This document shows, one piece after another, positions 8,132 through 45,648 of a stretch of DNA of 64,000 nucleotides. Position 1 is the first letter of the stretch. Each line of letters begins with the position of its first letter. The notes under the pieces were generated by a model. That model did not search any database. It was not told the DNA's origin and saw only the letters and a program-made list of their open reading frames with translations. The DNA comes from Escherichia coli (GTDB lineage Bacteria > Pseudomonadota > Gammaproteobacteria > Enterobacterales > Enterobacteriaceae). The DNA lies in NCBI RefSeq assembly GCF_003019035.1, contig NZ_CP027447.1; one strand, given 5' to 3'. The translations under genes were made by a program, and so were the position numbers.

Positions 8132-9631
8132 TTAACTCGCCGTTTCAGGCTTAAACACAATTTCCTGTTGTTCTTCATCTTCCTCGACGACTGGCGCAGT
8201 GCTGTGAATTTCAGCAACGCGTTTGCGCACACCAAACCAGCCTATAACCAGCAGAATACCGATAATCGGCAGCGCCGCGATAGTATAAGTCCCGTTCGGG
8301 TAATCGAACGCCATCAGCACCAGAACACTCAGTAAAAACAGTAATGTCAGCCAGGAAGTGAAGGGCGCGCCAGGCAGTTTAAAACTGACATCCGCTGCTT
8401 TGCCTTCTTTAATCGCTTTACGCAGGCGCATCTGGCACACGATGATAAACGCCCATGAAGCGATGATTCCCAGCGACGCGAAGTTCAACACAATCTCAAA
8501 TACGCGCGACGGCACCAGATAGTTGAGGAATACGCCGACGACATACACAACCAGTGTCGCCAGAATCCCGGCATACGGCACATGCTGACGACTCATTTTC
8601 GCCATAAAACTCGGTGCGGAACCGCCCATCGCCATTGAGCGCAGAATGCGTCCGGTGCAGTACAGACCTGAATTCAGGCTGGAGAGGGCAGCGGTCAGCA
8701 CCACAATGTTCATAATGCTGCCGATATATGGCACACCCAGTTTAGAGAAAAACGTCACGAACGGACTTTGCCCCGCCTGATACGCGCTCCACGGCAATAA
8801 CATAACCAGCAACACCACGGAGCCGACGTAAAACAGGCCAATACGCCAAATCACACTGTTAATGGCTTTAGGCACCATGGTCTGCGGATCTTTACATTCT
8901 CCGGCAGCTGTCCCCACCATTTCAATGGAGGCAAAAGCAAACACTACGCCCTGAATCAACACCAGCGCAGGCAGCAAACCGTGGGGGAAGAAGCCGCCAT
9001 TATCGGTGATTAAATGAAAGCCAGTGGTGTTGCCATCCAGCGGCTGACCACTACCGAGGAACACTGTACCCACGACCAAAAAGGTCACAATGGCGAGCAC
9101 TTTAATAAGCGCAAACCAGAACTCCATCTCCGCAAACCATTTCACACCGATCATATTCATGGTGCCAACGATGGTAAGTGCAGCGAGCGCAAAGACCCAC
9201 TGCGGCACGCCGCCAAACGCACCCCAGTAATGCATATACAGAGCGACGGCGGTAATATCAACAATCCCCGTCATCGCCCAGTTGATGAAGTACATCCAGC
9301 CAGCAACATAAGCGGCTTTCTCACCCAAAAACTCACGGGCATAAGAGACAAAACTGCCACTGGAAGGGCGGTGTAGCACCAGCTCACCCAATGCACGCAG
9401 AATAAAAAACGAAAACAAGCCACAAATTAAATAAACCAGTGCCAGTGCTGGACCCGCCATTTGCAGTCGGGCTCCTGCACCTAAAAACAAGCCGGTGCCA
9501 ATCGCGCCGCCAATGGCGATCATCTGTACCTGGCGATTGCCCATCGCTTTGTGATACCCCTCTTCGTGGGCATTAAGCCAGCGGCGTTTCGCGGCGTGTT
9601 GATCTGAAGTGTCGGTGTCGTGTTTACTCAT
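8132..9631 (-). CDS. ansP: L-asparagine permease (APC family), 499 aa
   Basis: Internal ATG (reverse complement of 9629..9631) with GGGAGAG ribosome-binding site; track ORF 8132..9682. Confidence 0.85.
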   Translation of the reverse strand: MSKHDTDTSDQHAAKRRWLNAHEEGYHKAMGNRQVQMIAIGGAIGTGLFLGAGARLQMAGPALALVYLICGLFSFFILRALGELVLHRPSSGSFVSYAREFLGEKAAYVAGWMYFINWAMTGIVDITAVALYMHYWGAFGGVPQWVFALAALTIVGTMNMIGVKWFAEMEFWFALIKVLAIVTFLVVGTVFLGSGQPLDGNTTGFHLITDNGGFFPHGLLPALVLIQGVVFAFASIEMVGTAAGECKDPQTMVPKAINSVIWRIGLFYVGSVVLLVMLLPWSAYQAGQSPFVTFFSKLGVPYIGSIMNIVVLTAALSSLNSGLYCTGRILRSMAMGGSAPSFMAKMSRQHVPYAGILATLVVYVVGVFLNYLVPSRVFEIVLNFASLGIIASWAFIIVCQMRLRKAIKEGKAADVSFKLPGAPFTSWLTLLFLLSVLVLMAFDYPNGTYTIAALPIIGILLVIGWFGVRKRVAEIHSTAPVVEEDEEQQEIVFKPETAS

Positions 9632-9897
9632 TGCTCTCCCTGATTGCTTTAATGAAAAAGTCATATAAGTTGCCATGAACAATGTTTATTCATCCTGGCG
9701 ATGATAGTTATCACCATTATTCTTTATGGGTATAAAACTATCGGCGCAGCATCCTACCCGTTATCGATAAACGATGCAAAACATCCCCTTACAATCCTGA
9801 AGGGGAATAATACAACTGACGAAAAAATGACAAATCCTTTTGCTGGTTAACCTGTGTACTGTCCTACACTTAATCTTTAAAAGATTGTGAGGGGCAT

Positions 9898-10515
9898 ATG
9901 ATTAAGGTGTATGGCGTACCCGGATGGGGCTCTACAATCAGTGAGCTGATGCTAACACTGGCTGATATTCCTTATCAGTTCTTTGATGTCAGTGGTTTTG
10001 ACCACGAGGGAACTTCACGCGAGTTATTGAAAACCCTGAACCCGTTGTGTCAGATTCCGACACTGGCGCTGGAAAATGACGAGATTATGACGGAGACAGC
10101 GGCGATTGCATTGATGGTTCTCGATCGTCGCCCGGACCTTGCGCCACCGGTTGGGCGCGCCGAACGTCAGCAGTTTCAACGGCTATTGGTCTGGCTGGTT
10201 GCTAATGTCTATCCAACATTCACTTTCGCCGATTACCCTGAGCGTTGGGCTCCTGACGCACCTGAACAGTTAAAGAAGAATGTTATTGAATATCGAAAAT
10301 CGCTTTATATCTGGTTGAATTCGCAGCTCACTGCTGAACCTTATGCGTTTGGTGAGCAACTAACGCTGGTGGACTGTTATCTTTGCACTATGCGCACATG
10401 GGGGCCTGGGCATGAATGGTTTCAGGATAATGCCACGAATATCAGTGCGATTGCTGATGCTGTATGTCAGTTACCGAAATTACAAGAAGTATTAAAAAGG
10501 AATGAAATTATTTGA
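9898..10515 (+). CDS. yncG: Glutathione S-transferase-like protein, 205 aa
   Basis: Track ORF; GST fold; synteny. Confidence 0.8.
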   Translation: MIKVYGVPGWGSTISELMLTLADIPYQFFDVSGFDHEGTSRELLKTLNPLCQIPTLALENDEIMTETAAIALMVLDRRPDLAPPVGRAERQQFQRLLVWLVANVYPTFTFADYPERWAPDAPEQLKKNVIEYRKSLYIWLNSQLTAEPYAFGEQLTLVDCYLCTMRTWGPGHEWFQDNATNISAIADAVCQLPKLQEVLKRNEII

Positions 10516-10590
10516 GTGGGATACCAGAAGATTATGTTATTTATTATTCAGTAACTTTATCCACAATGATGGGCGTAATTAATTAAATTC

Positions 10591-10803
10591 ATGTTATGTT
10601 TTTTAATTTATATCACTCTCCCTTTCATTCAGCTTGTCTATTTCATTTCCTCTGAAAAGAAACTAACTATTCACATTGTGCAGATGTTTCAGTTGTTATC
10701 ACAGGTATTCTATAATCTCAAAATGTTTTTAATGATGGATATGCTCGGAGTTGGAGATGCAATTAATATTAATACAAATAAAAATATCCGGCAGGTATGC
10801 TAA
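10591..10803 (+). CDS. yncH: Small hypothetical protein, 70 aa
   Basis: Track ORF in an AT-rich region; position matches K-12 yncH. Confidence 0.45.
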   Translation: MLCFLIYITLPFIQLVYFISSEKKLTIHIVQMFQLLSQVFYNLKMFLMMDMLGVGDAININTNKNIRQVC

Positions 10804-11623
10804 AAGGATAAATGGCGTTCTCTGTATTTATTCGCAATTATCTGTAGGACAAATATGGAGAGCTTGATGAGTCAGAGCTAAAACAGCAATTGATTAATAA
10901 ACATGTTGATTTATTCAAGAAAATGGATGTATTTTAAATATTGATTCTTAATATAACCTAATCAATAGATTATCACGTGAGAGCTGCACATTATTGGAGG
11001 GGCAGGGGAAAACACCATTTTGGGAACAATGCATCAGGTACTCTTACCACTGAAGCAAGATCATCCGGGCACCAGGTGGTGGTGCAGTGCTTTGGAAATG
11101 GTCCCCTCGGGGGAGTTGTCATTATTTTCTATGCTATTTGCTTATTATATTCATCAGGTGAATTTAATAAATTCCTAATTTGAAATATCCACTATTAAGC
11201 TAGTGTTTAACGACGTTAAGATGGCAATGTGCAGATCATGTTATCAGGGTGGGGCGGTAGCGTATATTCCTTATACAAACCATCATTCATTTCAATGATT
11301 GTTATTGAATTATTTATTGTTGTGAATAAAAAGACATTATGAATATTGGTTTGACTTTGCATATCAGGTTTTTTATTACTCGCTGTAATGTACGAGCCTG
11401 TCGTGAATAACGTCGAGAACCCATCCGTTGCGTTTGTGATTATTTTGTTGACTAAACAGACACCCGTTTCTCTGAAGTAAAATCCCAGACTAAATCATCA
11501 CATAACCATGACATTTTTCTGATATTCCCCGGTAACGCCAGATGTCGACTCGCTTATCTCATCCGCCCGACATGTTGTACATGCAATATGTGCGGATTAT
11601 TATTCATTTTCACGGAGGTTGCT

Positions 11624-13732
11624 ATGTCAACCGGATTACGTTTCACGCTGGAAGTGGACGGCCTGCCACCGGACGCGTTTGCGGTGGTTTCCTTTCATCT
11701 CACCCAGTCACTCTCTTCACTTTTTTCCCTTGACCTTTCTCTGGTCAGTCAGCAGTTTCTCTCCCTTGAATTTGCGCAGGTGCTGGACAAAATGGCCTAC
11801 CTGACGGTATGGCAGGGCGATGACGTACAGCGCCGGGTGAAAGGCGTGGTGACCTGGTTTGAACTCGGGGAGAACGACAAAAACCAGATGCTGTACAGCA
11901 TAAAGGTGCGCCCGCCGCTGTGGCGGGCAGGACTGCGTCAGAACTTCCGTATCTTCCAGAACGAGGACATCAGAAGCATCCTCGGCACCATACTGCAGGA
12001 AAATGACGTCACGGAGTGGAGTCCGCTGTTCAGCGAGCCGCATCCTTCCCGTGAGTTTTGTGTCCAGTACGGCGAAACCGATTACGATTTCCTGTGCCGG
12101 ATGGCGGCGGAGGAAGGCATCTTCTTTTATGAGGAGCACGCGCAAAAAAGTACCGACCAGAGCCTGGTCCTGTGCGACACCGTGCGTTATCTGCCGGAGT
12201 CCTTTGAGATCCCCTGGAATCCGAACACCCGTACCGAGGTGAGCACCCTATGCATCAGCCAGTTCCTCTACAGCGCACAAATCCGCCCATCTTCCGTGGT
12301 GACCAAAGACTACACCTTTAAACGACCCGGCTGGGCAGGGCGTTTTGATCAGGAAGGCCAGCACCAGGATTACCAGCGCACACAGTATGAAGTGTATGAC
12401 TACCCCGGACGTTTCAAGGGTGCCCACGGGCAGAACTTTGCCTGCTGGCAGATGGATGGCTGGCGAAACAACGCAGAAGTGGCGCGCGGAACAAGCCGTT
12501 CGCCGGAGATATGGCCGGGACGGCGAATTGCGCTGACGGGGCATCCGCAGGCGAACCTGAACCGGGAATGGCAGGTGGTGGCAAGTGAACTGCACGGCGA
12601 GCAGCCGCAGGCGGTGCCGGGACGCAGTGGTTCAGGTACCACGCTGAATAACCACTTTGCGGTAATACCGGCAGACAGAACATGGCGGCCACAGCCGTTG
12701 CTGAAACCGCTGGTGGACGGCCCGCAGAGCGCCGTCGTGACGGGACCGGCAGGAGAAGAAATCTTCTGTGATGAACATGGCCGCGTGCGGGTGAAATTTA
12801 ACTGGGACCGTTATAACCCGTCAAACCAGGACAGTTCATGCTGGATCCGTGTGGCACAGGCGTGGGCAGGCACCGGGTTTGGTAACCTGGCGATACCGCG
12901 TGTGGGTCAGGAGGTCATTGTGGACTTCCTCAACGGCGATCCGGACCAGCCGATTATTATGGGGCGCACCTACCACCAGGAAAACCGCACCCCCGGCAGC
13001 CTGCCGGGAACAAAGACGCAAATGACCATTCGTTCAAAAACCTATAAGGGCAGCGGGTTTAATGAACTGAAGTTTGACGATGCGACAGGGAAAGAACAGG
13101 TCTACATCCACGCGCAGAAGAACATGAACACCGAGGTGCTGAATAACCGCACCACGGATGTGATAAACAACCATGCTGAGACCATCGGCAACAATCAGGT
13201 GATTGCGGTTACCAACAATCAGATACAGACGGTGGGCGTTAACCAGATAGAGACGGTGGGCAGTAACCAGATCATTAAAGTGGGCTCTGTTCAGGTGGAA
13301 ACGATTGGACTTGTTCGTGCGCTGACTGTGGGCGTGGCGTATCAGACGACGGTAGGTGGCATTATGAACACCTCGGTGGCCCTGATGCAGTCCTCGCAGA
13401 TCGGTTTGCATAAATCGTTGATGGTCGGGCTGGGTTATGACGTCAAAGTCGGAAATAACGTTACCTTCACCGTTGGTAAAACGAAAAAGGATGATACCGG
13501 GCAGACCGCGATTTACTCCGCCGGTGAGCATCTGGAACTCTGCTGTGGTAAGGCAAGGCTGGTGCTGACTAAGGACGGACAAATTTTTCTCAACGGCACA
13601 AAAATTCATTTGCAGGGTAAGGAGCAGGTTAATGGTGACTCACTGTTGATTAACTGGAACTGTGCAGCCTCGAAATCCCCACCGAAGACCCCTGATGAAA
13701 AGCAGGATACGCCGGATATGAGAGAGTACTGA
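11624..13732 (+). CDS. vgrG: Type VI secretion spike protein VgrG, 702 aa
   Basis: ATG at 11624 with GGAGG ribosome-binding site; gp27/gp5-like VgrG sequence (…VDFLNGDPDQPIIMGRTYHQEN…); followed 66 nt later by an rhs start. Confidence 0.85.
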   Translation: MSTGLRFTLEVDGLPPDAFAVVSFHLTQSLSSLFSLDLSLVSQQFLSLEFAQVLDKMAYLTVWQGDDVQRRVKGVVTWFELGENDKNQMLYSIKVRPPLWRAGLRQNFRIFQNEDIRSILGTILQENDVTEWSPLFSEPHPSREFCVQYGETDYDFLCRMAAEEGIFFYEEHAQKSTDQSLVLCDTVRYLPESFEIPWNPNTRTEVSTLCISQFLYSAQIRPSSVVTKDYTFKRPGWAGRFDQEGQHQDYQRTQYEVYDYPGRFKGAHGQNFACWQMDGWRNNAEVARGTSRSPEIWPGRRIALTGHPQANLNREWQVVASELHGEQPQAVPGRSGSGTTLNNHFAVIPADRTWRPQPLLKPLVDGPQSAVVTGPAGEEIFCDEHGRVRVKFNWDRYNPSNQDSSCWIRVAQAWAGTGFGNLAIPRVGQEVIVDFLNGDPDQPIIMGRTYHQENRTPGSLPGTKTQMTIRSKTYKGSGFNELKFDDATGKEQVYIHAQKNMNTEVLNNRTTDVINNHAETIGNNQVIAVTNNQIQTVGVNQIETVGSNQIIKVGSVQVETIGLVRALTVGVAYQTTVGGIMNTSVALMQSSQIGLHKSLMVGLGYDVKVGNNVTFTVGKTKKDDTGQTAIYSAGEHLELCCGKARLVLTKDGQIFLNGTKIHLQGKEQVNGDSLLINWNCAASKSPPKTPDEKQDTPDMREY

Positions 13733-13815: not shown

Positions 13816-15106
13816 CAGGGAAAGATCATCAGAAGTACACTTTTTGTACTAAACAATTCGCATTTTATGTTTAAAAATTGAGATATTCCTCATTACCTGA
13901 AGCTGTTTTTTATTGCTTATACATGATCAAATACTCCTTACATAATTAAGGAGAACAAAATGGAACTTAAAAAATTGATGGAGCATATTTCTATTATCCC
14001 CGATTACAGACAAGCCTGGAAAGTGGAACATAAATTATCGGACATTCTACTGTTGACTATTTGTGCCGTTATTTCTGGTGCAGAAGGCTGGGAAGATATA
14101 GAGGATTTTGGGGAAACACATCTCGATTTTTTGAAGCAATATGGTGATTTTGAAAATGGTATTCCTGTTCACGATACCATTGCCAGAGTTGTATCCTGTA
14201 TCAGTCCTGCAAAATTTCACGAGTGCTTTATTAACTGGATGCGTGACTGCCATTCTTCAGATGATAAAGGCGTCATTGCAATTGATGGAAAAACGCTCCG
14301 GCACTCTTATGACAAGAGTCGCCGCAGGGGAGCGATTCATGTCATTAGTGCGTTCTCAACAATGCACAGTCTGGTCATCGGACAGATCAAGACGGATGAG
14401 AAATCCAATGAGATTACAGCTATCCCAGAACTTCTTAACATGCTGGATATTAAAGGAAAAATCATCACAACTGATGCGATGGGTTGCCAGAAAGATATTG
14501 CAGAGAAGATACAAAAACAGGGAGGTGATTATTTATTCGCTGTAAAAGGAAATCAGGGGCGGCTTAATAAAGCCTTTGAGGAAAAATTTCCACTGAAAGA
14601 ATTAAATAATCCAGAGCATGACAGTTACGCAATGAGTGAAAAGAGTCACGGCAGAGAAGAAATCCGTCTTCACATTGTTTGCGATGTCCCTGATGAACTT
14701 ATTGATTTCACGTTTGAATGGAAAGGTCTGAAGAAATTATGCGTGGCAGTCTCCTTTCGGTCAATAATAGCAGAACAAAAGAAAGAGCCAGAAATGACGG
14801 TCAGATATTATATCAGTTCTGCTGATTTAACCGCAGAGAAGTTCGCCACAGCAATCCGAAACCACTGGCACGTGGAGAATAAGCTGCACTGGCGTCTGGA
14901 CGTGGTAATGAATGAAGACGACTGCAAAATAAGAAGAGGAAACGCCGCAGAATTATTTTCAGGGATACGGCACATCGCTATTAATATTTTAACGAATGAT
15001 AAGGTATTCAAGGCAGGGTTAAGACGTAAGATGCGAAAAGCTGCCATGGACAGAAACTATCTCGCGTCAGTCCTTGCGGGGAGCGGGCTTTCGTAATCTT
15101 TCCCTG
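13816..15106 (+). mobile_element. H-repeat (ISAs1-family) insertion sequence, copy 1, about 1291 bp
   Basis: Terminal inverted repeats cagggaaagat… (13816) and …atctttccctg (ending 15106); encloses the transposase gene. Confidence 0.75.
13960..15096 (+). CDS. H-repeat-associated (ISAs1-family) transposase, 378 aa
   Basis: Track ORF; about 99% identical to the ORFs at 18738..19874 and 26492..27628. Confidence 0.85.
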
Positions 15107-18004: not shown

Positions 18005-18593
18005 CAGGGCAAGATCATGAAAATCGTGATGTAAATCACAATTTTCAACCTGGCTTTAACTCCTTCAGGAGATTAAAATTTAACCTATGGAATAACTAAA
18101 AAGATAAAAAAGGACGCCAGATGAGTATTCAAAGTTTGCTTGATTATATTTCAGTGTTCCCTGATATACGACAACAAGGAAAGGTTAAACATAAATTATC
18201 TGATATTTTGTTTCTCACCGTATGTGCAGTAATTGCAGGTGCCGATGAGTGGCAGGAAATTGAAGATTTTGGACATGAAAGACTGGAATGGCTAAAGAAA
18301 TATGGTGATTTTGATAATGGCATTCCGGTCGATGACACCATTGCACGCGTTGTGAGTAACATTGACAGTTTGGCCTTTGAAAAGATGTTTATTGAATGGA
18401 TGCAGGAGTGCCATGAAATCACTGATGGTGAAATTATAGCAATAGATGGAAAGACCATAAGAGGCTCCTTTGATAAGGGAAAAAGGAAAGGAGCAATCCA
18501 TATGGTGAGTGCATTCTCGACTGAAAATGGTGTTGTACTGGGGCAGGTGAAAACGGAAGCCAAAAGTAATGAGATTACAGCCATTCCAGAGTT
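18005..18593 (+). mobile_element. Remnant B of an ISAs1-family element, interrupted by intact copy 2
   Basis: IR-like end cagggcaagatcatgaaaatcg at 18005; transposase 5' ORF from 18121; homology stops at 18593 where copy 2 IR-L begins. Confidence 0.55.
18121..18593 (+). pseudogene. ISAs1-family transposase N-terminal fragment (about 158 codons, divergent paralog)
   Basis: Track ORF 18121..18630 reads through into the next element's end; roughly 60-70% identical by eye to the intact H-repeat transposase. Confidence 0.6.
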
Positions 18594-19884
18594 CAGGGAA
18601 AGATCATCAGAAGTACACTTTTTGTACTAAACAATTCGCATTTTATGTTTAAAAATTGAGATATTCCTCATTACCTGAAGCTGTTTTTTATTGCTTATAC
18701 ATGATCAAATACTCCTTACATAATTAAGGAGAACAAAATGGAACTTAAAAAATTGATGGAACATATTTCTATTATCCCCGATTACAGACAAGCCTGGAAA
18801 GTGGAACATAAATTATCGGATATTCTACTGTTGACTATTTGTGCCGTTATTTCGGGTGCAGAAGGCTGGGAAGATATAGAGGATTTTGGGGAAACACATC
18901 TCGATTTTTTGAAGCAATATGGTGATTTTGATAATGGTATTCCTGTTCACGATACCATTGCCAGAGTTGTATCCTGTATCAGTCCTGCAAAATTTCACGA
19001 GTGCTTTATTAACTGGATGCGTGACTGCCATTCTTCAGATGATAAAGACGTCATCGCAATTGATGGAAAAACACTCCGGCATTCTTATGACAAGAGTCGC
19101 CGCAGGGGAGCGATTCATGTCATTAGTGCGTTCTCAACAATGCACAGTCTGGTCATCGGACAGATCAGGACGGATGAGAAATCCAATGAGATCACAGCTA
19201 TCCCTGAACTTCTTAACATGCTGGATATTAAAGGAAAAATTATCACAACTGATGCAATGGGTTGCCAGAAAGATATTGCAGAGAAGATACAAAAACAGGG
19301 CGGTGATTATTTATTCGCTGTAAAAGGAAATCAGGGTCGGCTAAATAAAGCCTTTGAGGAAAAATTCCCACTGAAAGAATTAAATAATCCAGAACATGAC
19401 AGTTACGCAATGAGTGAAAAGAGTCACGGCAGAGAAGAAATCCGTCTTCACATTGTTTGCGATGTCCCTGATGAACTTATTGATTTCACGTTTGAATGGA
19501 AAGGTCTGAAGAAATTATGCGTGGCAGTCTCCTTTCGGTCAATAATAGCAGAACAAAAGAAAGAGCCAGAAATGACGGTCAGATATTATATCAGTTCTGC
19601 TGATTTAACCGCAGAGAAGTTCGCCACAGCAATCCGAAACCACTGGCACGTGGAGAATAAGCTGCACTGGCGTCTGGACGTGGTAATGAATGAAGACGAC
19701 TGCAAAATAAGAAGAGGAAACGCCGCAGAATTATTTTCAGGGATACGGCACATCGCTATTAATATTTTGACGAATGATAAGGTATTCAAGGCAGGGTTAA
19801 GACGTAAGATGCGAAAAGCTGCCATGGACAGAAACTATCTCGCGTCAGTCCTTGCGGGGAGCGGGCTTTCGTAATCTTGCCCTG
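18594..19884 (+). mobile_element. H-repeat (ISAs1-family) insertion sequence, copy 2, about 1291 bp
   Basis: IR-L cagggaaagatcatcag at 18594; IR-R …atcttgccctg ending 19884; same length as copy 1. Confidence 0.75.
18738..19874 (+). CDS. H-repeat-associated (ISAs1-family) transposase, 378 aa
   Basis: Track ORF; near-identical to copies 1 and 3. Confidence 0.85.
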
Positions 19885-26322: not shown

Positions 26323-27638
26323 CAGGGAAAGATCACGTAACGCTGCTCAGGGAAAGATCACGTAACGCTGCTTTTTTGTACTAAACAATCCGCATTTTAT
26401 GTTTAAAAATTGAGATATTCCTCATTACCTAAAGCTGTTTTTTATTGCTTATACATGATCAAATACTCCTTACATAATTAAGGAGAACAAAATGGAACTT
26501 AAAAAATTGATGGAACATATTTCTATTATCCCCGATTACAGACAAGCCTGGAAAGTGGAACATAAATTATCGGATATTCTACTGTTGACTATTTGTGCCG
26601 TTATTTCGGGTGCAGAAGGCTGGGAAGATATAGAGGATTTTGGGGAAACACATCTCGATTTTTTGAAGCAATATGGTGATTTTGATAATGGTATTCCTGT
26701 TCACGATACCATTGCCAGAGTTGTATCCTGTATCAGTCCTGCAAAATTTCACGAGTGCTTTATTAACTGGATGCGTGACTGCCATTCTTCAGATGATAAA
26801 GACGTCATCGCAATTGATGGAAAAACACTCCGGCATTCTTATGACAAGAGTCGCCGCAGGGGAGCGATTCATGTCATTAGTGCGTTCTCAACAATGCACA
26901 GTCTGGTCATCGGACAGATCAGGACGGATGAGAAATCCAATGAGATCACAGCTATCCCTGAACTTCTTAACATGCTGGATATTAAAGGAAAAATTATCAC
27001 AACTGATGCAATGGGTTGCCAGAAAGATATTGCAGAGAAGATACAAAAACAGGGCGGTGATTATTTATTCGCTGTAAAAGGAAACCAGGGGCGGCTAAAT
27101 AAAGCCTTCGAGGAAAAATTTCCGCTGAAAGAATTAAATAATCCAGAGCATGACAGTTACGCAATGAGTGAAAAGAGTCACGGCAGAGAAGAAATCCGTC
27201 TTCACATTTTTTGCGATGTCCCTGATGAACTTATTGATTTCACGTTTGAATGGAAAGGTCTGAAGAAATTATGCGTGGCAGTCTCCTTTCGGTCAATAAT
27301 AGCAGAACAAAAGAAAGAGCCAGAAATGACGGTCAGATATTATATCAGTTCTGCTGATTTAACCGCAGAGAAGTTCGCCACAGCAATCCGAAACCACTGG
27401 CACGTGGAGAATAAGCTGCACTGGCGTCTGGACGTGGTAATGAATGAAGACGACTGCAAAATAAGAAGAGGAAATGCAGCAGAATTATTTTCAGGGATAC
27501 GGCACATCGCTATTAATATTTTGACGAATGATAAGGTATTCAAGGCAGGGTTAAGACGTAAGATGCGAAAAGCAGCCATGGACAGAAACTATCTGGCGTC
27601 AGTCCTTGCGGGGAGCGGGCTTTCGTAATCTTTCCCTG
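26323..27638 (+). mobile_element. H-repeat (ISAs1-family) insertion sequence, copy 3, with a 25-bp tandem duplication at its left end
   Basis: cagggaaagatcacgtaacgctgct occurs twice in tandem (26323..26372); IR-R …atctttccctg ends at 27638. Confidence 0.7.
26492..27628 (+). CDS. H-repeat-associated (ISAs1-family) transposase, 378 aa
   Basis: Track ORF; near-identical to copies 1 and 2. Confidence 0.85.
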
Positions 27639-44766: not shown

Positions 44767-45648
44767 TTAGCCACGACGTGTCGCCAGCCAGCAGAGCAGG
44801 GAACCGCCGCAGACCATTAGCGCGCCTTGCCAGAACGAGAACGACAGCGGGGCGCTGAGCAGCACGGCTGCAAGCGCTGAGGAAAGGACGGGCGTAAAAT
44901 ACGAACCTACCGCCATAATGGTGACGTTGCCATGTAATATACCGACGTTCCATGCAGCATAAGCAAATCCTAAGGTAAATGCCGCAGAGATGAGTTTAAT
45001 CATGACTGGCGTGCTAAATACCATTTCTGGTTGTGGCGTGAGAAAATAGTAAACCCACAGACTTGCTCCCGTTAGCAGGACAAAAACGGTAATTCCGTTA
45101 AATCCGCGTGCGTATTTATTCGTTACTGTGCAATAGGCTGCCCAGATAAACGCACCAATAAACGCCAGGAAATAACTCAATGGGCTGGTGGTGATATTAT
45201 TGATGATTTCATCATAATGTAACCCATTGTCACCACCTAACACCCAGCAGACGCCAACCAGGGCTAATAATAATCCTGGTACAATCAGCCAGTTGGTTTT
45301 CTGACCATTAAACAGAATGGCAAAGAGAATTGTCAGGCTGGGCCACAGATAGTTCACCATACCCACTTCAATCGCCTGATGACGGGTCGCCGCATATCCT
45401 AAGGAAAGCGCCAGACAGATTTCATAGCTGACGAATAACAGACACCCGGCGAGTAAATAGCCTTTCGGGATCTGCCGAATACGCGGAAATCCAACCGTGA
45501 AGATTAACAGCAGCCCGCTTAATGAATAGATAGCAGCTGCGCCGCCGACCGGGCCGAGCCCCTCACTGACACCGCGAATCAATCCTACCATCGTGCTCCA
45601 CAGGACGATCGCTATTAGCCCTATGAGCGTTGCTTTTTGTCGTGTCAT
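44767..45648 (-). CDS. yddG: Aromatic amino acid exporter (DMT family), 293 aa
   Basis: Track ORF; 10-helix hydrophobic profile; synteny upstream of fdnG. Confidence 0.8.
   Translation of the reverse strand: MTRQKATLIGLIAIVLWSTMVGLIRGVSEGLGPVGGAAAIYSLSGLLLIFTVGFPRIRQIPKGYLLAGCLLFVSYEICLALSLGYAATRHQAIEVGMVNYLWPSLTILFAILFNGQKTNWLIVPGLLLALVGVCWVLGGDNGLHYDEIINNITTSPLSYFLAFIGAFIWAAYCTVTNKYARGFNGITVFVLLTGASLWVYYFLTPQPEMVFSTPVMIKLISAAFTLGFAYAAWNVGILHGNVTIMAVGSYFTPVLSSALAAVLLSAPLSFSFWQGALMVCGGSLLCWLATRRG

What the first reader, a model, noticed from the sequence alone, without database searches (positions are those of the whole stretch)
10804..11623. 820-bp AT-rich non-coding leader upstream of vgrG
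This long intergenic region has homopolymer A/T tracts and no convincing ORF, and it precedes an accessory T6SS-associated gene. Such regions are typical targets of H-NS silencing and may hold the promoter and regulatory sites for the vgrG/rhs unit.
Basis: inference. Interest (0 to 1): 0.3.

Follow-up and report, generated by a model that had tools for sequence, protein, structure and literature searches.

The report
RfaH ops leader upstream of vgrG

Summary
The window is E. coli chromosome: ansP, yncG, yncH, an 820-bp gap (10804-11623), then vgrG, ISEc1 copies and Rhs.

**What holds up.** The coordinates are exact and GC is 37% against 49% for the window. No ORF is conserved, and there is no Rfam or tRNA match. 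The A/T homopolymer tracts are not above chance.

**Structure of the gap.** It is composite:
- 10804 to about 11137 is a single-copy spacer specific to the yncH locus.
- About 11138 to 11623 is a leader that travels with vgrG. It recurs at 78% identity before a second vgrG-Rhs island next to cusS.

**The conserved box.** One 37-nt box (11229-11265) survives in every variant of the locus. It contains GGCGGTAGCGTA (11253-11264, sense strand), an RfaH ops element. The homologous identical 12-mer in CFT073 (1715753-1715764, upstream of c1882 PAAR-vgrG) is a published RfaH ChIP-seq site in an H-NS-bound locus.

**Published K-12 data.** The 99.5%-identical leader shows H-NS binding, sigma-70 holoenzyme binding in vitro, and a weak PhoB site.

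**Most likely mechanism.** This is an H-NS-silenced leader in which polymerase pauses at ops and loads RfaH. RfaH then carries it through a C-rich, Rho-prone leader into vgrG. The promoter upstream of ops is not identified.

**Verdict.** A new member of a known kind, of modest interest.

The parts
10591..10803 (+). yncH (DUF5445), the upstream neighbour. It gives context only.
   Evidence: PGAP annotation. Pfam PF17520, E 9e-41.
10804..11137 (.). Locus-specific spacer. It is single-copy and found only next to yncH. It is not part of the vgrG module.
   Evidence: It occurs in 3575 of 5426 E. coli genomes, and its best match in each is >=97.6% identical. It is absent from the cusS-vgrG, L004 and CFT073 versions. 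Its 68-, 52- and 43-aa ORFs are frameshifted in K-12 by a 1-nt indel at 11067.
11102..11114 (+). GC-rich hairpin TCCCCTCGGGGGA followed by a T-rich stretch, at the 3' edge of the spacer. It is a weak terminator-like site.
   Evidence: It is the only terminator-like hit in 10400-11800, and 0.9 are expected by chance. The surrounding 191 nt fold no better than shuffles (z -0.6).
11138..11623 (+). Portable vgrG leader: non-coding, 36% GC, and it travels with the vgrG N-terminal coding block.
   Evidence: It is 78% identical over 11119-11630 to the cusS-vgrG-Rhs leader L003. Bins spanning 11154-11353 are 76-92% identical (about 85% overall), against 75% at vgrG four-fold sites.
11160..11174 (.). 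Palindrome GAATTTAATAAATTC. Its outer arms are conserved in three leader lineages. It overlaps an 8/10 match to the H-NS high-affinity motif. It is a possible operator or H-NS nucleation site (inference).
   Evidence: Alignment A1, invariant columns. Motif scan.
11229..11265 (+). 37-nt box GTGCAGATCATGTTATCAGGGTGGGGCGGTAGCGTAT. It is the only segment shared by all versions of the locus.
   Evidence: It is 94.6% identical to CFT073 L011 2730-2766, where both flanks are unrelated.
11253..11264 (+). RfaH ops element GGCGGTAGCGTA, on the non-template (sense) strand, 371 nt upstream of the vgrG ATG.
   Evidence: Exact pattern match. The same 12-mer lies at the homologous CFT073 position 1715753-1715764, which shows RfaH ChIP-seq signal (PMC9765446 Data set S2A/B; coordinate check).
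11351..11379 (+). Sigma-70-like promoter TTGACT-17-TATTAC, named by Shimada 2014 for the K-12 yncH>rhsE spacer. It lies downstream of ops and is not conserved in the paralog.
   Evidence: PMC3946193 Table 3. An 8-nt deletion in its spacer in L003.
11445..11582 (+). C-rich, G-poor stretch (C/G 2.1-2.5 in 78-nt windows). It is a rut-like candidate Rho entry site between ops and vgrG (inference).
   Evidence: It is above the 95th percentile of the window. It is also present in L003 (3.2) and in the CFT073 leader (2.0).
11508..11525 (-). PhoB box-like site, ATATCAGAAAAATGTCAT on the minus strand. It corresponds to a weak PhoB ChIP-seq peak in K-12.
   Evidence: PMC10294691 Table 1: peak at 1527862, ChIP score 1, H-NS-bound 'x'. 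14/18 match. It is not conserved in L003.
11614..11626 (+). Shine-Dalgarno GGAGG and the vgrG start codon ATG (11624).
   Evidence: The start is conserved in L003. The PGAP start at 11588 has no Shine-Dalgarno sequence.
11624..13732 (+). vgrG (702 aa), the first gene of the unit. It is followed by an ISEc1 insertion.
   Evidence: Pfam Phage_GPD, Phage_base_V and Gp5_trimer_C. ISEc1 left end at about 13817.

Best explanation
The gap has two parts.

- **10804 to about 11137** is a spacer peculiar to the yncH locus.
- **About 11138 to 11623** is the untranslated leader of the vgrG(-Rhs) effector island. This module is also found before a second vgrG-Rhs island beside cusS.

The key element of the leader is an RfaH ops site, GGCGGTAGCGTA, at 11253-11264 on the non-template strand.

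Proposed mechanism:
1. H-NS(-StpA) coats this AT-rich DNA and normally keeps initiation off.
2. When a promoter upstream of 11253 fires, RNA polymerase pauses at ops.
3. The exposed non-template hairpin recruits RfaH.
4. RfaH displaces NusG, suppresses backtracking and Rho-dependent termination in the 360-nt C-rich leader, and counters H-NS blocks to elongation. Transcription can then reach vgrG and the long downstream operon.

**Shown:** the sequence, strand and leader position of ops; its homology to a validated RfaH-loading site; the absence of coding or structured-RNA signal; and published H-NS and sigma-70 binding in K-12.

**Inferred:** that this copy is transcribed and loads RfaH; the promoter position; and the Rho site.
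For: 1. **The ops match.** GGCGGTAGCGTA matches ops at 11 of 12 positions. All bases needed for RfaH recruitment (C3-G8) and T11 are present (requirements from PMC5995543). About 0.003 such sense-strand matches are expected in 820 nt (my own estimate: 9 fixed bases on one strand).

2. **Homology to a validated site.** The site aligns with the CFT073 ops at 1715753-1715764, at the same ansP...yddH hotspot. There the identical 12-mer lies on the non-template strand of a UTR. It gives RfaH ChIP signal in the delta-hns delta-stpA strain, and the locus is H-NS-bound. All 8 leader-located ops sites in CFT073 bound RfaH.

3. **Conservation.**
 - The 37-nt box is the only sequence shared by four differently rearranged versions of the locus.
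 - GCGGTAGC is invariant in every fetched copy that retains the box; L006 has lost it to an ISEc1 insertion.
 - Bins spanning 11154-11353 are 76-92% identical between paralogs, against 75% at four-fold sites.

4. **Untranslated leader.** No ORF is conserved, and there is no Rfam, tRNA or Pfam hit.

5. **Published K-12 data on the 99.5%-identical leader.** It lies in an H-NS-bound region, has an H-NS gSELEX site and sigma-70 holoenzyme binding.

6. **RfaH and T6SS.** RfaH and ops are required for T6SS expression in EAEC sci1.

7. **Rho-prone leader.** A C>G stretch lies downstream of ops and is conserved in the paralog and in CFT073.

8. **Spacing.** The ops-to-first-gene distance (371 nt) lies within the range of validated sites, 40-634 nt.
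Against: - No transcription start has been mapped upstream of ops. The best sigma-70-like matches upstream score only 7-8 of 12.
- The published K-12 promoter guess lies downstream of ops, so transcripts from it would bypass RfaH.
- Position 12 is A, not the pause-promoting G. However, the validated kps and c1882 sites also have A.
- In CFT073 the RfaH signal appeared only when hns and stpA were deleted.
- In this strain the operon is broken by ISEc1 copies, and in K-12 the leader precedes a pseudogene. The site may therefore be a relic here.
- The paralogs show gene-conversion patches (100% identity over 11754-11853). Conservation alone is therefore not proof of selection.
- Outside E. coli the box was found only once among 100,044 species representatives.
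Confidence: 0.65

Rival explanations
1. The region is a plain H-NS-silenced intergenic region. vgrG is driven by sigma-70 promoters downstream of ops, for example TTGACT-17-TATTAC at 11351-11379 or TGTACA-16-TATTAT at 11576-11603. The ops box is then an inherited relic that is never transcribed or no longer matters.
For: - Shimada 2014 places a constitutive sigma-70 promoter and an H-NS site in the K-12 spacer and names TTGACT-17-TATTAC.
- Promoter-like sites exist downstream of ops.
- No strong promoter lies upstream of ops.
- In K-12 the leader sits in front of a pseudogene, yet it is 99.5% conserved by descent.
Against: - Both downstream promoter candidates are destroyed by 8-nt deletions in the paralogous leader, whereas the ops box is kept.
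- Promoter-like hits are not enriched (3 found against 5.6 +/- 2.5 in shuffles).
- The homologous ops in CFT073 does load RfaH.
- The gSELEX peak has a resolution of roughly 0.5 kb and cannot choose between promoters.
Confidence: 0.25
2. A small protein gene or small RNA hidden in the gap accounts for the conservation.
For: - Several ORFs of 20-68 aa exist.
- The box overlaps ORFs at 11203-11298 and 11229-11342, and the reverse ORF at 11216-11362.
Against: - The three longest 5' ORFs are frameshifted in K-12.
- Every ORF in the shared part is frameshifted, stopped or start-less in the cusS paralog. The one ORF of preserved length (11388-11480) loses its ATG and has diverged far more in protein than in DNA (81% nt identity).
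- There is no Pfam, Rfam or tRNA hit.
- Fold z-scores are -0.6 and -1.5.
- Nothing is annotated there in K-12 or in any of the listed E. coli records.
- No yncH or rhsE entry appears in the held Term-seq tables.
Confidence: 0.04
3. The leader is mainly a target of a specific transcription factor. Candidates are PhoB at 11508-11525, a Fur/Dam switch like the EAEC sci1 promoter acting through the GATC at 11234, or sigma-54.
For: - A PhoB ChIP-seq peak with a Pho-box-like motif lies at the corresponding K-12 position.
- A GATC lies inside the conserved box.
Against: - The PhoB peak has the lowest ChIP score (1). Its authors consider such H-NS-region sites inert, and the site is not conserved in the paralog.
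- No Fur box of >=13/19 lies near the GATC.
- The best sigma-54 matches, at 9-10 of 12, fall over the Shine-Dalgarno sequence or on the wrong strand.
- The RpoN gSELEX peak listed for yncH>ydcD maps, in the older coordinate system that paper uses, inside rhsE rather than in this gap (my coordinate conversion).
Confidence: 0.03

Closest known systems
ops site upstream of c1882 (PAAR-vgrG island) in uropathogenic E. coli CFT073 (Hustmyer et al. 2022, mBio, PMC9765446)
   Same: - Same chromosomal hotspot (ansP...yddH).
- Homologous 37-nt box with an identical ops 12-mer, GGCGGTAGCGTA.
- Non-template strand of an untranslated leader about 300-370 nt before the first T6SS accessory gene.
- H-NS-bound locus.
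   Different: - In CFT073 the sequence just after ops is an ISEc1 left-end remnant, and the cargo is PAAR-VgrG-DUF4123/M35.
- Here the native 360-nt vgrG leader and a VgrG-Rhs cargo follow.
- Here the upstream DNA carries yncH plus a 334-nt spacer and 115 nt of module sequence that CFT073 lacks.
- RfaH binding has been measured only in CFT073.
Classical JUMPStart/ops leaders of rfb, waaQ (rfaQ), wza, kps, hly and tra operons
   Same: - The ops core GGCGGTAG..T.
- Leader position.
- A long, horizontally acquired, H-NS-bound envelope or secretion operon downstream.
   Different: - The canonical upstream half of JUMPStart (cagtgc.ctGGTAGCtgttaagccagg) is absent. This family has its own flank, gtgcagatcatgttatcagggtgg.
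- Position 12 is A, as in kps, rather than G.
ops1/ops2 inside the EAEC sci1 T6SS cluster, and the hcp-tssH ops of CFT073
   Same: RfaH/ops control of type VI secretion genes in E. coli.
   Different: Those sites lie inside main T6SS clusters (the hcp-clpV/tssH gap) and have unrelated flanks. This one heads an orphan vgrG-Rhs effector island.
Generic H-NS-silenced AT-rich promoter regions of xenogeneic genes
   Same: Low GC, and published H-NS occupancy of the K-12 copy.
   Different: Silencing alone does not explain the invariant GC-rich ops box inside otherwise drifting AT-rich DNA.

Membership tests
RfaH ops-containing operon leader | A 12-nt ops, GGCGGTAGnnT(G/A). Bases C3-G8 are needed for RfaH recruitment and T11 for pausing. 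| tested here: met
   GGCGGTAGCGTA lies at 11253-11264, with positions 1-11 matching consensus. A at position 12 also occurs in the RfaH-bound kps (GGCGGTAGCATA) and c1882 sites. G12C kept recruitment in vitro.
RfaH ops-containing operon leader | ops lies on the non-template strand relative to the regulated operon. | tested here: met
   The site and vgrG are both on the + strand.
RfaH ops-containing operon leader | ops lies in an untranslated leader, not inside a translated ORF. | tested here: met
   No ORF is conserved across K-12 and paralog comparisons. Nothing is annotated there. In CFT073, ops-like sites inside coding regions did not bind RfaH.
RfaH ops-containing operon leader | ops is transcribed from a promoter upstream of it. 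| tested here: inconclusive
   Only weak sigma-70-like matches lie upstream: TTGAAA-15-TAGTGT at 11180-11206, and TAAGAT at 11217-11222, identified by eye, which aligns with TATGAT in CFT073. No start-site data were found in the held supplements.
RfaH ops-containing operon leader | RfaH occupancy downstream of ops, and RfaH-dependent expression. | not testable with these tools
   This has been measured only for the homologous CFT073 site, in the delta-hns delta-stpA strain.
RfaH ops-containing operon leader | The locus is bound by H-NS(-StpA). | not testable with these tools
   Published for the K-12 copy and for the CFT073 locus. It has not been measured in this strain.
JUMPStart 39-bp element | A conserved upstream half with a second GGTAGC motif (cagtgc.ctGGTAGCtgttaagccagg) directly 5' of ops. 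| tested here: not met
   Side-by-side comparison with the rfb, rfaQ, wza and kps leaders. Only 'gtgcag' and 'cagg' resemble it. The recalled 39-mer was verified as real upstream of rfbB.
H-NS-silenced xenogeneic AT-rich DNA | GC content well below the genome background. | tested here: met
   37.3% against 49.0%, in the lowest 10% of 820-nt windows.
H-NS-silenced xenogeneic AT-rich DNA | Enrichment of the high-affinity H-NS motif, or of A-tracts. | tested here: inconclusive
   Two 8/10 motif matches against 1.7 expected. A/T runs are at chance level.
Small protein gene or small RNA | A reading frame or RNA structure conserved between diverged copies. | tested here: not met
Fur/Dam epigenetic switch (EAEC sci1 promoter type) | A Fur box overlapping a GATC at the promoter. 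| tested here: not met
   The only Fur-like match (13/19) is at 10937, far from the GATC sites at 11059 and 11234.

The most novel reading that the evidence does not exclude
The 37-nt ops box may be a portable RfaH entry site that wires orphan T6SS effector islands (vgrG-Rhs, PAAR-vgrG) into the RfaH counter-silencing regulon across the species.

- At least part of the 136-nt element is present in 5291 of 5426 complete E. coli genomes, at up to three places per genome.
- It heads at least two unlinked vgrG-Rhs islands.
- It is retained even in T6SS-less K-12, in front of the rhsE pseudogene.
- ISEc1 insertions right beside the box appear to have swapped the cargo placed under it.

If this is right, spike and effector islands would be co-expressed with the ops-bearing main T6SS clusters by one elongation factor.
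Probability: 0.4. Interest if true: 0.5.

Novelty: new member of a known kind. Interest (0 to 1): 0.35.

Why it matters
RfaH control of type VI secretion has been recognised only recently (CFT073 ChIP-seq in 2022, an EAEC preprint in 2025). It has been discussed for main clusters and for one CFT073 island.

This result shows that the same ops box heads the common vgrG-Rhs island next to yncH, a second island next to cusS, and the K-12 rhsE remnant. That suggests orphan toxin islands share a single elongation-level switch with the secretion machine.

It also gives a concrete and cheap test: ops point mutations and delta-rfaH in a delta-hns background. That test addresses how silent Rhs/VgrG islands are turned on.

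For genome annotation, it means such long AT-rich "leaders" should be scanned for ops.

Tried and rejected
- **Fur/Dam switch at the GATC in the box.** There is no Fur box nearby.
- **Sigma-54 promoter.** No canonical -24/-12 site was found. The published RpoN gSELEX peak appears to lie inside rhsE after coordinate conversion.
- **TTATCA-16-TATATT (11241-11268) as the conserved vgrG promoter.** I first favoured it, but it overlaps ops. It more likely reflects the ops box than a promoter.
- **Small ORFs.** Rejected by comparison with K-12 and the paralog and by Pfam.
- **Structured RNA.** Rfam found nothing and fold z-scores are unremarkable.
- **tRNA-like or att site.** None found.
- **The box as an ISAs1-family terminal repeat.** No inverted partner exists in the window. 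The ISEc1 ends share only CAGGG with it.
- **Search for the box in other species.** There was one hit, an E. coli-like contig labelled Citrobacter.
- **Published 5' and 3' end data.** The Cappable-seq, SMRT-Cappable-seq and Term-seq supplements held as text had no entry for this gap. Those files may be truncated. The Thomason 2015 and Belogurov 2009 papers are not held.
- **PhoB supplement.** Nothing further was found.

Full report
**Where we are.**
- The window is E. coli chromosome. Megablast of 9600-11900 gives 100% matches to many strains, annotated ansP, yncG, yncH, then a VgrG gene.
- The finding's coordinates are exact. yncH stops at 10803, and vgrG starts at ATG 11624 with GGAGG 5 nt upstream.
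- PGAP in the identical strain starts the gene at 11588, where there is no Shine-Dalgarno sequence.
- The downstream protein is a real VgrG with GPD, OB and gp5_C domains.
- It is followed by an ISEc1 insertion, an Rhs fragment, two more full ISEc1 copies plus a truncated transposase ORF, and a 1417-aa Rhs protein before yddH.

**Checking the observation.**
- GC is 37.3% against 49.0% for the window, in the lowest tenth of 820-nt windows.
- The A/T homopolymer tracts are not special: three runs of five or more, against 3.4 expected from composition.
- Nothing is annotated in the gap in K-12 or in any of the listed E. coli records.
- There is no Rfam match, no tRNA and no Pfam hit on the ORFs.
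- RNA folding is no better than shuffles, with z of -0.6 and -1.5.
- The three longest ORFs (68, 52 and 43 aa) are all frameshifted in K-12 by a 1-nt indel at 11067.
- Every ORF in the 3' part is frameshifted, stopped or start-less in a paralogous copy.
- "No convincing ORF" therefore stands.

**The gap is composite.**
- The first ~335 nt (10804-11137) are single-copy and occur only next to yncH, in 3575 of 5426 genomes.
- From about 11138 the sequence recurs upstream of a second vgrG-Rhs island beside cusS, at 78% identity through to the vgrG N-terminal coding block.
- Between the two paralogs, vgrG four-fold degenerate sites are 75% identical.
- Leader bins spanning 11154-11353 are 76-92% identical (about 85% overall).
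- The proximal 250 nt are 60-80% identical and carry indels.
- Stretches of 100% identity inside vgrG show that gene conversion occurs. Conservation alone is therefore suggestive, not proof of selection.

**The conserved box.**
- Other lineages have rearranged this hotspot. Some lack yncG-yncH and carry an Rhs fragment (L004, L008). Some carry ISEc1 (L006). B2 strains such as CFT073 carry PAAR-VgrG cargo (L007, L011).
- The only sequence common to nearly all of them is a 37-nt box, 11229-11265. L006 has lost it to an ISEc1 insertion.
- At least part of the surrounding 136-nt element is present in 5291 of 5426 genomes, at up to three places per genome.
- The box contains GGCGGTAGCGTA at 11253-11264.
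- This is the RfaH ops element, whose consensus is GGCGGTAGCGTG. According to Zuber et al. 2018, bases 3-8 are required for RfaH recruitment and T11 for pausing, and a G12 change did not abolish recruitment.

**Link to published experiments.**
- Hustmyer et al. 2022 list an ops, GGCGGTAGCGTA, at CFT073 1715753-1715764, 313 nt upstream of c1882. It lies on the non-template strand of a UTR.
- It shows RfaH ChIP-seq signal in the delta-hns delta-stpA strain, and the locus is H-NS-bound.
- All eight leader-located ops sites in CFT073 bound RfaH. Those inside genes did not.
- I fetched that region. The ops is at the stated coordinate, and the box aligns with the window's box.
- In CFT073 the DNA just after ops is an ISEc1 left-end remnant. 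Here the native vgrG leader follows.
- The kps ops, a classical RfaH target, also ends in A.
- The cusS paralog has AGCGGTAGCATA, with the essential core intact.
- A 2025 preprint shows that rfaH and two ops sites are needed for EAEC sci1 T6SS expression.

**Not a canonical JUMPStart.** The classical 39-bp JUMPStart is the ops-containing leader element of polysaccharide operons. I recalled its sequence from memory and verified it at 100% identity upstream of rfbB. It has an upstream half with a second GGTAGC motif. The vgrG box lacks this half and has its own flank.

**H-NS and promoters.**
- The K-12 copy is 99.5% identical over 753 nt. It is then joined by a deletion to the rhsE pseudogene.
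- For K-12, Fitzgerald et al. 2023 mark position 1527862 (window about 11514) as lying in an H-NS-bound region. They report a weak PhoB ChIP peak there with a Pho-box-like motif. The motif is at 11508-11525 on the minus strand and is not conserved in the paralog.
- Shimada et al. 2014 found sigma-70 holoenzyme and H-NS binding in the yncH>rhsE spacer by genomic SELEX. They proposed TTGACT-17-TATTAC, which is window 11351-11379.
- That promoter lies downstream of ops and is destroyed by an 8-nt deletion in the paralog. The same is true of the candidate at 11576-11603.
- Upstream of ops only weak sigma-70 matches exist. A -10-like TAAGAT at 11217-11222, which I identified by eye, aligns with TATGAT in CFT073. 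If used, it would put ops about 25 nt into the transcript, as in rfaQ (27 nt).
- The promoter remains unresolved. Promoter-like hits are not enriched over shuffles.

**Downstream of ops.** The 359-nt stretch to the ATG is 37% GC. It has a C-rich, G-poor segment at 11445-11582, with C/G of 2.1-2.5, above the window's 95th percentile. This also holds in the paralog and in CFT073. That fits a Rho entry site, the kind of obstacle RfaH overcomes. This step is inference.

**Conclusion.**
- The defining feature, however, is an RfaH ops site in a portable vgrG leader.
- The homologous site in CFT073 is already published. Its presence before the widespread yncH-linked and cusS-linked vgrG-Rhs islands and the K-12 rhsE remnant was not described in the papers I could search.
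- I rate it a new member of a known kind, of modest interest.

Noticed in passing
window 13817-15100, 18121-18627, 18738-19874, 26492-27628: Three full copies of ISEc1 (ISAs1 family, 'H-repeat', 378-aa transposase) and one truncated copy break up the vgrG-Rhs island. PGAP calls the vgrG a pseudogene in the identical strain.
   Followed up: partly
L011 (CFT073) 2771-2926; L006 4100 onward; window 11243-11249: ISEc1 ends (CAGGGAAAGAT...) abut the ops box in CFT073 and L007, a few bases after ops. In L006 the insertion removed ops. The box itself contains ATCAGGG, so it may be a preferred ISAs1-family target, and cargo under ops may have been swapped by IS-mediated events.
   Followed up: partly
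window ~11556 / L002 (K-12) 4906: The K-12 rhsE 'pseudogene' begins at a deletion junction. This junction fuses nt 753 of this leader directly to Rhs core sequence, removing vgrG. K-12 keeps the ops at about 1527601-1527612.
   Followed up: partly
window 11754-11853: The yncH-linked and cusS-linked vgrG genes are 100% identical across these two adjacent 50-nt bins, within otherwise ~92%-identical coding sequence. This indicates gene conversion between the paralogs.
   Followed up: no
window 10960-10972: A perfect match to the IHF consensus WATCAANNNNTTR (AATCAATAGATTA) lies in the locus-specific spacer. 0.04 are expected in shuffles.
   Followed up: no
window 44904-44914 (- strand): The second exact GGCGGTAGNNT match in the window (GGCGGTAGGTT) appears to fall inside the minus-strand ORF 44767-45648. 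Sites of this kind inside coding regions did not bind RfaH in CFT073.
   Followed up: no
window 11588 vs 11624: PGAP starts vgrG at ATG 11588. The start at 11624 is supported by a Shine-Dalgarno sequence and is conserved in the paralog, which makes it the more likely start.
   Followed up: yes
window ~10864 (K-12 older coordinate 1525236): A weak FlhDC genomic-SELEX peak (PMC9962212) is listed for the yncH>ydcD spacer. By my coordinate conversion it falls at the 5' end of this gap.
   Followed up: no
window 40031-43620: Another low-GC stretch (<=37% over 820-nt windows) lies outside the Rhs island. It was not examined.
   Followed up: no
window 10591-10803: yncH and ydcD are listed as 'essential only by TraDIS' in K-12 (PMC5821084). 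This may reflect poor transposon access to H-NS-coated DNA rather than true essentiality. That reading is my speculation; the paper text does not mention H-NS.
   Followed up: partly
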